Origin: Oceanospirillaceae bacterium
Lineage (GTDB): Bacteria > Pseudomonadota > Gammaproteobacteria > Pseudomonadales > Balneatricaceae
Length of the DNA: 40,570 nucleotides
Assembly: GCA_013373575.1 (NCBI GenBank)
Contig: JABXHP010000111.1
Location: forward strand, 1-40,570
Direction of reading: 5' to 3'
The number at the start of each line of letters is the position of its first letter. The first letter of the stretch is position 1. Position numbers and translations under genes: made by a program. The notes under the pieces are model-generated. The model was not told where the DNA came from, ran no database searches, and saw only the letters and a program-made list of their open reading frames with translations. This document shows positions 17,611 through 22,222 of this stretch, one piece after another.

Positions 17611-18759
17611 TTAACAGGCAACCAAGGGCTCAGCCAGAACCTCGGAAGATTGAGCCGCCTGAAGGGCTGCAACCTCTGCTTCGGCCGCTGCAACCGCAGC
17701 ATGATCCTGCAGAAAGTCGAACTGCAGGTTAAACAGGCGGCTCTCACCTGCACCGATTGAGGGAACCAGACCTAGATCGCGCTGATAGCGGCGGTTATAA
17801 GCGAAGCTAGTCCCCGGCTCCAACCCCACCACATACCCCTGCTCTGGAGTGTCGGTATTTTTCCACAATGTAAGGACTGGCAACTGATTAAGGTTGTAAC
17901 GCATAGCCACCCCCTTATCGGCAGCTGCGTTGCGCAACAGCGCCAGCGTATCACCCTCTGAATCACCTAGAGGCCGGATATTGAAGACCTCCTCATCAAA
18001 TCCAGCCGTTGGTGCGGGCATTGTGCTCCAAGTGTTAAGACCCTCCTTTGCGCGCTCATTGAAAGGCGAGAGCTGCTTCACCGGGACGCAGACCTCGGCA
18101 CCCTGTTCTAAAAGCGGAACTCCAAAGTTATTGTGGTAGATAATCTGGTACTCACGCGCAGAGGAACCGCGGTTAATCAGCTCATCACTGATTCGAAAAC
18201 TCGCTTCGCCAGGGAGAATATCGAGGTGCATCCACACCTCAAACTCACAGCGCTTGAAGCAGCGCTCATCGACACGTCCGGAGAGACGAACGCGATAGGG
18301 CGGAGCACTCTCGACCGAGAGACGAACGACTGATGCGGGAATATTCTGTATTTGACCATGGAGTGTCAGCATCTCACCCTGATCCTCCCCCGGGTGACCC
18401 GTCCACTGATAACCGCAACGAGCAACTAGCTCATTAAAGCCCTCAAGCCAGCCTATACCGCCCTGCTTACCGAGCTCCATATAGGCTGGATTGACCACCT
18501 CTTTTACTGGGGAGTCCCAACCAAGACGCAGATCGGCATACTGGGCATAGAGCACTCCCATTCCACGAGTCGGCGAAACTGTCAGCGTCATACCTCCAAC
18601 TCTAAGTGTGATAACCTCTGCCCCCTCCTGCTTACCGCCATGCAATATCTGATGGCGGCACTCAAAATCGACTGGGAAATCAAACCCGAGATCCGTAGCT
18701 TTTAGGGAGAAGTCACGCCGGGACACGCCCGCACGTGTGTCGGTAATCAGGTATTCCAA
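17611..18759 (-). CDS. Aldose 1-epimerase superfamily protein (DUF4432-like)
   Basis: LHGGKQEG, PTRGMG, LGWDSPV, LTLHG, YHNNFG, GYVVGLEPGT motifs recalled for this family; TTG start after AGGA. Confidence 0.8.
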   Translation of the reverse strand: MEYLITDTRAGVSRRDFSLKATDLGFDFPVDFECRHQILHGGKQEGAEVITLRVGGMTLTVSPTRGMGVLYAQYADLRLGWDSPVKEVVNPAYMELGKQGGIGWLEGFNELVARCGYQWTGHPGEDQGEMLTLHGQIQNIPASVVRLSVESAPPYRVRLSGRVDERCFKRCEFEVWMHLDILPGEASFRISDELINRGSSAREYQIIYHNNFGVPLLEQGAEVCVPVKQLSPFNERAKEGLNTWSTMPAPTAGFDEEVFNIRPLGDSEGDTLALLRNAAADKGVAMRYNLNQLPVLTLWKNTDTPEQGYVVGLEPGTSFAYNRRYQRDLGLVPSIGAGESRLFNLQFDFLQDHAAVAAAEAEVAALQAAQSSEVLAEPLVAC

Positions 18760-18768
18760 TTTACATCC

Positions 18769-19755
18769 TTAGAGTTGGTTGCTGCAGCTTGCGTTAGACT
18801 CAAGGTCAGACAGGTTCTGCGCCGTGGTCTCAGCGATATTAATTAACGCTTCCTGAGTCAAAAAGGCCTGATGCCCAGTAATGATAACGTTGGGAAAGGT
18901 GGTCAGACGCATCAACTCATCGTCCGCAATCACCTCGCCAGATAGATCTTCGAAAAAGAGATCCGCCTCCTCCTCATAAACATCCAGCGCCAGCCCTCCG
19001 ACCTGTAGCGATTTTAAACCACCGATAACCGCTTGGGTATCCACCAAACCACCACGACTGGTGTTAATGATAATCACCCCCTGTTTCATACTCGCCAAGG
19101 CTTCAGCACCAACAAGATGGTGGGTTTGCGGCGTAAGGGGACAGTGCAGGCTGATGATATCGGACTCAGCATAGAGCTTAGCAAGATCGACATACTCCAC
19201 ACCCATCTCAAGCGCCTCCTCACAGGGGTAGAGATCATAGGCGATCACCCTCGCGCCAAACCCCCTCAATATTTGGCAGAAGACCCGACCTATGGTACCC
19301 GTACCAATAACCCCTACTGTTTTACCGTGGATGTCACGCCCCACCAAACCATCTAAAGAGAAGTTACCTTCGCGTACACGGTTGTAAGCTTTATGAATAT
19401 GACGGTTTAGGGCCATCAACAGTGCCACAGCATGCTCTGCAACTGCATAAGGCGAGTAGGCAGGCACACGAACCACTGGGATACCTGCATTGGCTGCCGC
19501 ATCGAGGTCGACATTGTTATAACCAGCGCAACGAAGCGCTATCGCCTTTACGCCGAGCGAATCAAGCGACGCGATCACCTCAGCATCGACGCAATCATTC
19601 ACAAAGACCGAAATTGCATCGTACCCCTCAGCCAGAGCGGCGGTACGCCCGCTCAGATGCGCCTCCTCAAAGGCGATTTCATGACCTAGCTTAACCATCG
19701 CCTGACGCAAAAAAGCTCGTTCATCTTTACGTGCACTAAAAACCAAAACTCGCAT
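18769..19755 (-). CDS. ldhA: D-2-hydroxyacid dehydrogenase, D-lactate dehydrogenase-like (start moved to ATG at 19755)
   Basis: ALRCAGYNNVDL, VPAYSPYAVAEH, GTGTIG, LHCPL, NTSRG, LDVYEEE, TGHQAFLT. Confidence 0.88.
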   Translation of the reverse strand: MRVLVFSARKDERAFLRQAMVKLGHEIAFEEAHLSGRTAALAEGYDAISVFVNDCVDAEVIASLDSLGVKAIALRCAGYNNVDLDAAANAGIPVVRVPAYSPYAVAEHAVALLMALNRHIHKAYNRVREGNFSLDGLVGRDIHGKTVGVIGTGTIGRVFCQILRGFGARVIAYDLYPCEEALEMGVEYVDLAKLYAESDIISLHCPLTPQTHHLVGAEALASMKQGVIIINTSRGGLVDTQAVIGGLKSLQVGGLALDVYEEEADLFFEDLSGEVIADDELMRLTTFPNVIITGHQAFLTQEALINIAETTAQNLSDLESNASCSNQL

Positions 19756-19885: not shown

Positions 19886-20164
19886 TCAGAGAAAGCGTTC
19901 GACCTCATCCACCCAACGCCGCCCTTGAGGTCGCTGACGCCGCTCAAAGCTCGAAACACGCATACGTCGCTCATCGCCGGAACGCCTATCGAATCCTCGA
20001 CGCCTATCGCTACCTGAGTAGGCGAACACCTGATTTTGCGAGTACCACTGCGCGGCGCTCTGAACCGAACTAAACTCTCGAGCTCCACTCAGCGAAACAC
20101 CTTTCCTGAGCCACATAAAGACCGTCTCGCCGGCACTGTTAACCGCCTTTATTAGATCAACCAT
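19886..20164 (-). CDS. Hypothetical 92-aa protein with tandem (D/E/G)RR motifs; candidate c-di-GMP binder
   Basis: YSGSDRRRGFDRRSGDERR...ERR...GRRWVD; co-oriented and 49 bp downstream of a GGDEF gene; purine-rich sequence before the ATG. Confidence 0.7.
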   Translation of the reverse strand: MVDLIKAVNSAGETVFMWLRKGVSLSGAREFSSVQSAAQWYSQNQVFAYSGSDRRRGFDRRSGDERRMRVSSFERRQRPQGRRWVDEVERFL

Positions 20165-20199
20165 CTTGCTTTCTCACACCAAATAGATCTGTCTTCTAA

Positions 20200-20210
20200 A
20201 GTATAGTTCA
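20200..20210 (-). promoter_or_regulatory. RpoS-type -10 element upstream of the 92-aa gene
   Basis: TGAA-CTATACT on the minus strand, about 35 nt before the ATG. Confidence 0.5.
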
Positions 20211-20213
20211 AGC

Positions 20214-21725
20214 TTATTCGCTAGCAACCTGGTTGCGGCCACCCTCTTTGGCCCGATAGAGCGCCTGATCGGCTCTATGAAACAGCCGCGCGCTCGTATC
20301 ACTTGATCGCGCCTGAGTTACACCGACCGAGACACGAATCGGGACAAGCTCACCCTCGTACTTAAACGGCGCCAACTCAACTGCTCGGCGAAGCTTCTCT
20401 GCTGCCTTCATAGCCCCCTGCGCTTCAGATTCTGCAAGCAGAACAACGAACTCCTCACCGCCGTAGCGCGCTAAAAAGTCAGACGCTCGCAAAACCTTGC
20501 GCAGCACCTTTGCAACCAGTTTTAGTGCGCGATCACCAATAAGGTGCCCCATCTTATCGTTGATCTGTTTGAAGTGATCGATATCTACCACCAACACAGC
20601 GAAGGGGATTTGATGCCGTTCCAAACGGCTCAATTCAGCGCGTAACTGCTCTTCATAGGCCCGCCTGTTTGGCAATCCGGTTAGATGGTCGGTCAGCGCC
20701 AGCTTATGTTCTAGATCGACTTGAGTGTGCGCACTTACGGCATCTCTCTCGACACTGACAAGCCGCTGCTGCAGTTGCGCGTACTGCTTTTCAATAAACT
20801 CAATGCGCGCTTCACGTCGCTGTTTGAACTCGGTAAAACCTTGCGAGAGTCCCTCCAGTTGATTGGCTATAAGCGCTTTGAGATCATTAAGATCCTCTGC
20901 GCCCTCAATGCCTGAGCGCATCTCCTCTATACCCCGGGTTAGCTTATCAGCCTCTTCTGTCTCACCCTCATTAAGCGACTTCGACTCTTCCTGGGACTCC
21001 TGAAGCGACTTATTTAGCTCAGCTAACTTCGCCACCATCGACTTGAGAAACTCGGAGAGCTGATCCACCTGAGCCCCCTTGCGCTGCTCAAGTAACTCTA
21101 CAATCGAGTGCAGTCGCTGAATCAAATCATCAGGTTGAGAGTCCTCACTCATCGCATCTGTAAGCTCTACGACAAGATCATGATCCTCAGGCTGCAAGGG
21201 TACGAGGTTCGCAATGCGCTTAATCGCTAGTATAAGCTCAACAGGAGGCGACGCGACTTCTGAGCTAGCTGGTACTCCATCGCTCTGCATCTGCTCAATG
21301 GCGTCGACCTGCATGAGCTGCAGAATCCGATCCAGATTAGCAGCCAAAGCAGCAAACAGATCATCAGACTCCTCAAGAGCACCGATCAACTGCGAAGCTA
21401 AACTGTCTCCTCCGTCACAGGCGAGTGACTGCCTCGCGAGCAAATAGCGTTTCAGAGTACTTAAAATTGAGTCAGAGAGGCGCTCACGATCGAGGGTGTA
21501 GACCCTATAACTGCGCTCTAGTTGGGTCAGTATCTGCCGAGCATCTGCAACATTGGCAGGTTCTGCCCAGCTCATCTCAGTCATGGAAGCGGGCAAATCG
21601 GTCTCGAGAACACTAAAAAGAATTCTCAGCGCGCGATTGAAAAGCACTTTTTGCTTCTCAAAATCGTTCTGAAGGTTAACCAACTCACGCTCTAGGGATG
21701 TGTACTCTTGCTGAAGATTATCCAT
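20214..21725 (-). CDS. Soluble diguanylate cyclase with long helical/coiled-coil N-terminus
   Basis: TDHLTGLPNRR, DIDHFKQIND, GHLIGD, I-site RASD, active site RYGGEEF, ADQALYRAKEGGRN; no TM segment evident. Confidence 0.93.
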   Translation of the reverse strand: MDNLQQEYTSLERELVNLQNDFEKQKVLFNRALRILFSVLETDLPASMTEMSWAEPANVADARQILTQLERSYRVYTLDRERLSDSILSTLKRYLLARQSLACDGGDSLASQLIGALEESDDLFAALAANLDRILQLMQVDAIEQMQSDGVPASSEVASPPVELILAIKRIANLVPLQPEDHDLVVELTDAMSEDSQPDDLIQRLHSIVELLEQRKGAQVDQLSEFLKSMVAKLAELNKSLQESQEESKSLNEGETEEADKLTRGIEEMRSGIEGAEDLNDLKALIANQLEGLSQGFTEFKQRREARIEFIEKQYAQLQQRLVSVERDAVSAHTQVDLEHKLALTDHLTGLPNRRAYEEQLRAELSRLERHQIPFAVLVVDIDHFKQINDKMGHLIGDRALKLVAKVLRKVLRASDFLARYGGEEFVVLLAESEAQGAMKAAEKLRRAVELAPFKYEGELVPIRVSVGVTQARSSDTSARLFHRADQALYRAKEGGRNQVASE

Positions 21726-21854
21726 CTACTCGCCTGATAACCCGTTCGGCTGTTCGGAAAATATCGGTAAGTAGAAGCATAGACACTTTTCGCTGCTTAG
21801 CCTGAAAAAATATTCAGGTGGACCGCCTAGGCGCAGGAGTAGAGGGAAAAAGTT

Positions 21855-22206
21855 GAGTCTGCCGATAAGCCGGGTTCTGTCGTGGACAGTCATTCATCTG
21901 GGACTAACATCACTGCTAGCCTCAAGCGACCTACCCGGACCCGGCATGGGCCATGCCTTAATGGGTCCCTATTTGGTCTTGCTCCGAGTGGGGTTTTCCA
22001 TCGCCGTAGAGTGTTGCCACCTACGCGGTGCGCTCTTACCGCACCATTTCAACCTTACCGGTAATCCGAGGATTACTTAGGCGGTATACTTTCTGTTGCA
22101 CTTTCCGTCGGCTCACGCCGCCCAGACGTTATCTGGCACTTTGCCCTATGGAGCCCGGACTTTCCTCCACTTCAGCGAACTGAAGCAGCGACTGCCTGGC
22201 AGACTC
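21855..22206 (-). ncRNA. rnpB: RNase P RNA, bacterial type A
   Basis: Minus strand contains GAGGAAAGTCCGGGCTCCATAGGGC, GAAAGTGCAACAGAAAG, GAGCAAGACCAAATAGG and ACAGAACCCGGCTTA; complementary ends GAGTCTGCC/GGCAGACTC; lies downstream of rsmI. Confidence 0.97.
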
Positions 22207-22222
22207 GGCGGCGATTCTAACA
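22207..22222 (-). promoter_or_regulatory. rnpB promoter: extended -10 with GC-rich discriminator
   Basis: TG-T-TAGAAT-CGCCGCC directly before the RNA 5' end. Confidence 0.7.

What the first reader, a model, noticed from the sequence alone, without database searches (positions are those of the whole stretch)
19886..21725. Diguanylate cyclase paired with a small tandem-(D/E)RR protein: candidate c-di-GMP source plus sponge/effector module
Seen: a 503-aa soluble GGEEF protein with intact catalytic and RxxD I-site motifs is followed 49 bp later, on the same strand, by a 92-aa ORF. Its C-terminal half is an array of di-arginine motifs: YSGS-DRR-RGF-DRR-SGD-ERR-x6-ERR-x4-GRRWVD (spacing 6, 6, 9, 7). 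Known: Arg-rich motifs stack c-di-GMP, for example the PilZ RxxxR loop, the RxxD I-site and the [YF]xGP[DE]RR motif of Caulobacter Cle proteins; YSGSDRR differs from the last only by P>S. Inference: the small protein has no catalytic domain and may be a stand-alone multivalent c-di-GMP binder that buffers, sequesters or relays the product of its neighbouring cyclase. Its ~45-aa N-terminal part (VFMWLR...FSSVQSAAQWY) could be a docking domain. I know no named family for it.
Basis: partly seen in the sequence, partly recalled or inferred. Interest (0 to 1): 0.8.

Follow-up and report, generated by a model that had tools for sequence, protein, structure and literature searches.

The report
Arginine-loop c-di-GMP binder family beside cyclase
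A real, conserved 92-residue protein from an unnamed family of marine gammaproteobacteria carries an arginine-rich tail resembling the Caulobacter peptide that grips the signal c-di-GMP, so it likely binds and buffers that signal; it sits beside a c-di-GMP-making enzyme in only some related lineages.

Summary
Observation confirmed (both genes are on the - strand). The 92-aa ORF is a real gene: it is under purifying selection against three orthologues, and its four [DE]RR units plus GRRxxD occur in 0 of 200,000 shuffles. It belongs to an unnamed family found in 45 of 151 genomes of its own family (1-8 copies each) and 0 of 399 other genomes of the class. Members have a predicted small beta-hairpin/helix domain and a YxGx[DE]RR...DRR...GRRxxD loop. 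The loop holds both contact elements (DRR and [R/K]RxxD) of the c-di-GMP-binding Cle peptide. It lacks the Cle spacing, second YxGP unit and receiver domain, so this is not a Cle protein. The 'paired module' holds only partly. The cyclase is a relocated DgcP-like enzyme that shares a terminator-bounded unit with the small gene in three related lineages. Orthologues at the same locus persist without it, some as tail-only peptides still under selection, and only 13 of 97 family members have a c-di-GMP enzyme gene next door. Best reading: an untested natural c-di-GMP binder (binding about 0.65; buffer role about 0.45). Docking on the cyclase is unsupported.

The parts
21850..22207 (-). rnpB (RNase P RNA, class A), upstream landmark of the locus
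   Evidence: Rfam RF00010, 338 bits
20214..21725 (-). Diguanylate cyclase, 503 aa: helical N-terminal region (weak DGCcoil match, below cut-off) plus GGDEF domain; DgcP-like; moved out of the dsbA-ubiB locus
20478..20489 (-). RxxD I-site motif (RASD, aa 413-416)
   Evidence: alignment A5
20448..20462 (-). GGEEF active-site motif (aa 422-426)
19886..20164 (-). 92-aa gene of the unnamed arginine-loop family (four-repeat subfamily)
20021..20164 (-). N-terminal domain, aa 1-48: predicted beta-hairpin plus helix; L4, W18, A37, W40 conserved
   Evidence: AlphaFold2 block pLDDT 72-90; conservation
19907..20020 (-). Arginine-rich tail, aa 49-86: YxGxDRR, DRR, ERR, ERR, GRRxxD; low-confidence in the model; candidate c-di-GMP site
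   Evidence: motif comparison with PMC7382256
19785..19806 (-). Intrinsic-terminator-like hairpin with T run after the small gene; similar hairpin in the other two cyclase-bearing lineages
18769..19755 (-). D-2-hydroxyacid (D-lactate-type) dehydrogenase gene, constant downstream neighbour of the orthologues; start at 19755 inferred from orthologues (ORF finder gives 19794)

Best explanation
The 92-aa protein is a member of an unnamed, lineage-restricted family of small proteins whose arginine-rich tail likely binds c-di-GMP and would act as a non-enzymatic buffer (sponge) for it. Shown: the gene is conserved under purifying selection, the family exists, and DRR and GRRxxD are its most conserved residues. 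[quoted passage not shown] Inferred: the N-terminal domain is mainly a stabilising scaffold, because tail-only orthologues persist. Shown by synteny: in three related lineages a DgcP-like cyclase lies directly upstream, with a terminator-like hairpin closing the pair. Inferred: the two are co-transcribed, so the binder would damp, delay or set a threshold on that enzyme's output. The pairing is one lineage-limited arrangement, not a defining trait of the family. Odds: binds c-di-GMP about 0.65; does so mainly as a buffer about 0.45.
For: Invariant in 62 aligned members: L4, W18, R55, R61, G81, R82, R83, D86; G51, R54, D59, R60 at 90% or more. Among 97 members, 93 have GRRxxD, 74 have [YF]xGx[DE][RK]R and 20 the exact Cle unit [YF]xGP[DE][RK]R. 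PMC7382256 attributes most binding to DRR and [R/K]RxxD, shows the free peptide is unfolded, and shows a carrier-fused peptide sequesters c-di-GMP in vivo while the bare peptide was not detectable. Tail-only orthologues keep all four repeats and GRRxxD, with pN 0.18 versus pS 0.87 between two of them. Short family variants bring [DE]RR and RRxxD to about the Cle distance (L150, L151). All 9 genomes of the genus have the family and GGDEF genes. The hairpin after the small gene is present in the 3 cyclase-bearing lineages and not seen in the 3 cyclase-free loci examined. Excluding the window's own context, 8 of 121 adjacent neighbour clusters are c-di-GMP enzyme-type genes versus 1 of 82 at the second position.
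Against: No binding data. The Cle spacer is 11 residues; here the spacers are 26, 20, 14 and 5, and only 11 of 97 members have one of 9-14. The second Cle unit's Tyr and Gly, important for affinity in PMC7382256, have no match in register; 0 of 97 members have the tandem Cle motif. Neighbourhood enrichment is weak: Fisher p 0.063, and binomial p 0.001-0.06 for assumed backgrounds of 1.7-3.5%; the relatives are rich in such genes (38-54 EAL genes each). The strong conservation of the folded domain, and of a C-terminal strand and helix in the long form, fits an effector with a partner at least as well as a passive scaffold. Many GGDEF-rich genera of the same family show no match.
Confidence: 0.45

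Rival explanations
1. c-di-GMP-switched adaptor or effector: the arginine loop binds the ligand and the conserved N-terminal domain (plus the C-terminal helix in the long form) then engages a protein target, as the receiver domain does in Cle proteins.
For: Trp/Ala/Leu core invariant or nearly so across the family. The long form is predicted as a compact fold with the arginine stretch as an inserted loop (pLDDT 83.5, pTM 0.68). Paralogues are kept in up to 8 copies and a 5-gene cluster.
Against: Tail-only orthologues persist under selection. The window's subfamily lacks the C-terminal helix. No constant neighbour suggests a target. The target is unlikely to be the flagellar switch: FliM was not found in 6 of 9 genus genomes that have the family, including a 99%-complete single-contig genome.
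Confidence: 0.22
2. Dedicated partner of the neighbouring cyclase: the small protein docks on the enzyme and captures or relays its product locally, or relieves I-site feedback.
For: 49-bp gap, same strand and a shared terminator-like hairpin in three lineages. One lineage has a second GGDEF gene in the same unit.
Against: The full-length orthologue L180 and the tail-only orthologues sit at the same locus with no cyclase. The cyclase's N-terminal region was not found in G007, G008 or G001, which carry family genes. 28 of 30 cyclase loci have no family gene within about 1.5 kb. The three cyclase-bearing lineages form one moderately supported clade (82/86), so adjacency is a single event.
Confidence: 0.1
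3. Nucleic-acid-binding or other-nucleotide-binding small basic protein; the resemblance to the Cle motif is convergent, and the cyclase landed here because the region after rnpB accepts insertions.
For: Net charge +7 with 16 Arg. The weak fold matches include ribosomal LX-like and dsRBD chains. A near-identical strain has foreign DNA inserted at the rnpB 3' end. Cle spacing is not met.
Against: Invariant acidic residues beside the arginines (DRR, RRxxD) match the guanine-reading contacts of the CleD structure and are not expected of simple basic RNA-binding tails (general knowledge). No basic residue is conserved in the folded part. Only one subfamily lies near rnpB.
Confidence: 0.2

Closest known systems
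[quoted passage not shown]
   Same: First unit YxGxDRRR matches in register except Pro to Ser (exact YxGPERR in two orthologues); terminal RRxxD present; tail predicted flexible; can exist as a short peptide.
   Different: No receiver domain; no second YxGP unit; DRR-to-RRxxD spacer 26/20/14/5 rather than 11; one to three extra [DE]RR units; carried on an unrelated small domain; gammaproteobacterial, whereas 294 of 302 ARR hits in PMC5677366 were alphaproteobacterial.
DgcP of pseudomonads (polar, FimV-associated cyclase; PMC7033161, passages only)
   Same: Soluble long helical N-terminal region plus C-terminal GGEEF domain; weak DGCcoil match; relatives' orthologues lie between dsbA and ubiB. 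That Pseudomonas dgcP lies near dsbA is recalled, not tested.
   Different: 503 aa versus 670 aa; moved to the rnpB-ldhA locus; no direct sequence comparison with DgcP was run.
Phage nucleotide-sponge proteins (listing) as a functional analogy
   Same: Small non-enzymatic proteins that would sequester a nucleotide messenger.
   Different: No PHROG match; chromosomal; linear arginine motif rather than a folded pocket (pocket mode recalled).
UPF0339-type small proteins (PDB 3bid, 2k7i, 6q2z, 2k49)
   Same: Recur among the top weak fold matches to the N-terminal domain of both models.
   Different: Not significant (Foldseek E at least 0.19; Z at most 4.2, rmsd 5.9-7.7 A over 50-52 residues for 3bid); no Pfam match; no arginine loop.

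Membership tests
[quoted passage not shown] | N-terminal CheY-like receiver domain | tested here: not met
   No Pfam Response_reg hit in the window protein or 28 members; model has a hairpin and helix only
Cle ARR / CSP motif | [YF]xGP[DE][RK]R first unit | tested here: inconclusive
   Window has YSGSDRR (Pro replaced); exact unit in orthologues G006 and L177 and in 20 of 97 members, relaxed unit in 74 of 97
Cle ARR / CSP motif | Terminal [R/K]RxxD | tested here: met
   GRRWVD at aa 81-86; GRRxxD in 93 of 97 members, invariant in alignments A4 and A6
Cle ARR / CSP motif | Tandem repeat of [YF]xGPx[RK]R with 11 residues between DRR and RRxxD | tested here: not met
   0 of 97 tandem; spacer 9-14 in 11 of 97; window spacers 26, 20, 14, 5
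Cle ARR / CSP motif | [quoted passage not shown] | not testable with these tools
   Needs ITC or NMR
Active GGDEF diguanylate cyclase | GG[DE]EF motif and conserved metal/GTP-binding residues | tested here: met
   GGEEF 422-426; N353, D381, K386, D390 invariant in 29 orthologues; activity itself not assayed
Active GGDEF diguanylate cyclase | RxxD I-site five residues before the active-site motif | tested here: met
   RASD 413-416
DgcP-like cyclases | DGCcoil (PF20975) region | tested here: inconclusive
   25.5 bits versus cut-off 26.7 in the window; 35 bits in the 63%-identical orthologue
PilZ-domain receptors | PilZ beta-barrel following the RxxxR loop | tested here: not met
   No Pfam PilZ hit; only 6 residues follow the last motif
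UPF0339-type fold | Significant structural or profile match | tested here: inconclusive
   Only weak matches

The most novel reading that the evidence does not exclude
This is a natural, multivalent c-di-GMP sponge family that expanded to up to eight copies per genome in one clade of marine gammaproteobacteria. In this lineage a four-repeat member shares an operon with a relocated DgcP-like cyclase, forming a two-gene source-plus-sink unit that thresholds or delays c-di-GMP signalling without hydrolysing it, while tail-only descendants work as bare sponge peptides.
Probability: 0.25. Interest if true: 0.8.

Novelty: new variant of a known kind. Interest (0 to 1): 0.5.

Why it matters
c-di-GMP levels are usually explained by synthesis and hydrolysis. 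The sequestering peptide of PMC7382256 was engineered, and my searches listed no natural stand-alone counterpart from this clade. If these proteins bind, they extend the Cle motif to a new scaffold and to gammaproteobacteria. The family is also a ready-made test series: two-repeat long form, four-repeat form, tail-only form, with and without an adjacent cyclase. That makes the buffer-versus-effector question and the spacer rules of the motif directly testable with short synthetic peptides. Interest is tempered because binding is unproven, the cyclase link is lineage-limited, and the scan's own unchecked notes report similar arginine microproteins in other genomes.

Tried and rejected
Family libraries: no hit for the window protein in Pfam, NCBIfam or PHROGs; only scattered chance-level hits for 28 members in Pfam and 85 members in NCBIfam. 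PDB sequence search: one E 0.54 hit. ESM Atlas: no usable hit for two queries. Longer fused forms: none among 7,995 scored candidates, which is weak evidence. The 18 long proteins among the 28 phmmer hits match only aa 6-42; the four inspected are repeats sharing a 'WLRxGV'-like strand, so all 18 were dropped. Fold searches of both models gave nothing significant. Co-folding of cyclase, small protein and two c-di-GMP gave no verdict (score 0.00, mark 0.32) and is used neither for nor against. The first cyclase scan of genome contigs returned only generic GGDEF proteins. A viral-contig scan could not be run with alignment A2 and was not repeated. Metatranscriptome contigs cover the small ORF in 3 of 4 runs at depth 2-6, but similar scattered pieces lie on neighbouring genes and the runs were chosen for holding this stretch, so transcription is not shown. 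The sigma-70-like site at 20227-20200 is at chance level (3 found versus 1.7 +/- 1.4). The idea that the N-terminal domain is lost together with the cyclase was rejected by L180. A flagellar-switch target was judged unlikely. One order-level hit (G646, E 1e-4) is an unrelated protein with a similar tail. One class genome (G422) was not scored.

Full report
Observation. Both genes lie on the minus strand: a 503-aa protein at 21725-20214 and a 92-aa ORF at 20164-19886, 49 bp apart. The large protein has a GGDEF domain at aa 343-499 and a sub-threshold DGCcoil match, with GGEEF at 422-426 and RASD before it. The small ORF has [DE]RR at 53, 59, 65 and 74 and GRRWVD at 81-86. Six of 200,000 shuffles give four [DE]RR and none also gives GRRxxD. 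The order in the window is rsmI, rnpB, cyclase, small gene, D-2-hydroxyacid dehydrogenase (ldhA-like), DUF4432, mraZ (mraZ named from recall).

The small ORF is a gene. Against three orthologues, synonymous sites are near saturation (pS 0.72-0.85) while pN is 0.24-0.36. Six strain differences seen in RNA-library contigs all fall on third codon positions, four of them silent. Those contigs are too shallow and scattered to show transcription.

It belongs to an unnamed family. A phmmer search gave 28 hits: 10 small proteins and 18 long proteins matching only a short N-terminal strand, which were dropped. A profile of 28 sequences matched 45 of 151 genomes of the window's own family, with 1-8 copies each, and 0 of 399 other genomes of the class. 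A subfamily profile found 4 of 11 own-family genomes and one borderline unrelated protein among 400 other genomes of the order. Named homologues are hypothetical proteins from Marinobacterium and a 'Pontibacter sp. JAM-7' record. The window's genome has five copies. A tree of 62 members separates a long form (two [DE]RR units, C-terminal strand and helix) from the window's subfamily (three to five units, no C-terminal helix), SH-aLRT 98. AlphaFold2 predicts a beta-hairpin and helix for aa 1-48 with a low-confidence tail (mean pLDDT 71.4). The long form is a compact domain with the arginine stretch as an inserted loop (83.5, pTM 0.68). No fold match is significant, though UPF0339-type chains recur weakly.

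The motif. I read parts 1-3 of 7 of PMC7382256, and passages plus section 7 of PMC5677366; no supplements were opened. CleD's peptide binds an intercalated c-di-GMP dimer mostly through DRR and [R/K]RxxD, 11 residues apart, aided by two tyrosines and a glycine turn. It is unfolded when free and sequesters c-di-GMP in vivo when fused to a carrier. In this family G81, R82, R83, D86, R55 and R61 are invariant across 62 sequences. Of 97 unique members (including a few fragments), 93 have GRRxxD, 74 the relaxed first Cle unit and 20 the exact one. The Cle architecture is not fully met: 0 of 97 have the tandem unit and only 11 of 97 have a spacer of 9-14; the window's spacers are 26, 20, 14 and 5. 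So it likely works like a Cle ARR but is not a member. Short variants L150 and L151 bring the two elements to about the Cle distance, which links the family to that geometry.

The pairing. Among the 30 loci of the cyclase's best matches, 21 have ubiB and 20 dsbA within the 1.5-kb flanks, but only 2 (the window and G006) have the small gene; in the window's genome dsbA and ubiB are adjacent on another contig. The cyclase has therefore moved. At the rnpB-ldhA locus three lineages have cyclase plus full-length small gene: the window with strains L174-L176, G006/L178 (with a second, PAS-GGDEF gene), and L177 with L179 (two contigs joined by inference from an identical protein). L180 has the full-length gene with rnpB directly upstream and no cyclase. 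G007 and L182-L184 have tail-only forms of about 45-62 aa (starts uncertain), also without a cyclase. The tail-only forms remain under selection (pN 0.18, pS 0.87). A dehydrogenase tree groups the cyclase-bearing lineages (82/86) and the cyclase-free ones (80/77), so one gain or one loss explains the pattern and its direction is unresolved. A G+C-rich hairpin with a T run follows the small gene in the three cyclase-bearing lineages and was not seen in L180, G007 or L182. The scan's terminator count alone is at chance level (3 versus 2.2 +/- 1.6), so the weight rests on conserved position.

Family-wide context. I annotated 205 neighbour clusters representing 293 ORFs. Thirteen of 97 members have a GGDEF, EAL-type or HD_5 gene immediately adjacent. 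Without the window's own context this is 8 of 121 adjacent clusters (5 GGDEF) against 1 of 82 at the second position (Fisher p 0.063; binomial p 0.001-0.06 for backgrounds of 1.7-3.5%). Relatives carry 38-54 EAL genes each, so the higher background is plausible and the enrichment is only suggestive. All 9 genus genomes have GGDEF genes and the family; FliM was found in only 3 of 9.

Mechanism. I commit to a c-di-GMP buffer: the tail would fold round the ligand, the small domain would stabilise it, and in this lineage co-expression with the cyclase would damp or threshold its output (0.45). Rivals are a ligand-switched adaptor (0.22), a nucleic-acid or other binder with incidental neighbours (0.2), and a dedicated cyclase partner (0.1). 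Binding, co-transcription, translation and cyclase activity are all inferred, not shown.

Novelty. Paper searches (listings only, plus passages of PMC7033161 and PMC12564702) showed no description of this family. The library lacks most subscription papers. The scan's earlier AI notes list several similar arginine microproteins in other genomes but no sequence look-alike of this one; they are leads, not support. Verdict: new variant of a known kind, interest 0.5.

Noticed in passing
L174:188-3291 versus window 21874: A 98%-identical strain has foreign DNA, including a 699-aa helicase-like ORF (HsdR-like by recall), directly upstream of the cyclase, with a short copy of the rnpB 3' end left at the junction: a likely island integrated at rnpB.
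   Followed up: partly
L118 (G164:C1:3501503-3504020): Five divergent family paralogues in one cluster; pairs also occur in G110, G099, G170, G072, G085 and G107.
   Followed up: no
L169:1237-1641: An unrelated protein with a hydrophobic N-terminus and Cys motifs ends in DRR..DRR..DRR..GRRxxD, suggesting the tail is a portable module.
   Followed up: no
L152:3027-3206 (G169): A 60-aa stand-alone protein made almost only of [DE]RR units and GRRxxD, outside the window's genus.
   Followed up: no
L146:3011-3318 (G140): A family member split into two overlapping frames, N-terminal domain and tail (frameshift or assembly error).
   Followed up: no
G000:C126:7566-7904, C85:524-937, C57:22-390, C358:3616-3966: Four paralogues in the window's own genome; the C358 copy has a degenerate first motif and lies next to an HD_5 gene and an IS66 fragment.
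   Followed up: partly
window 17611-19755: The dehydrogenase and DUF4432 genes travel together, inserted between rnpB and mraZ in this clade and at another site in G001.
   Followed up: partly
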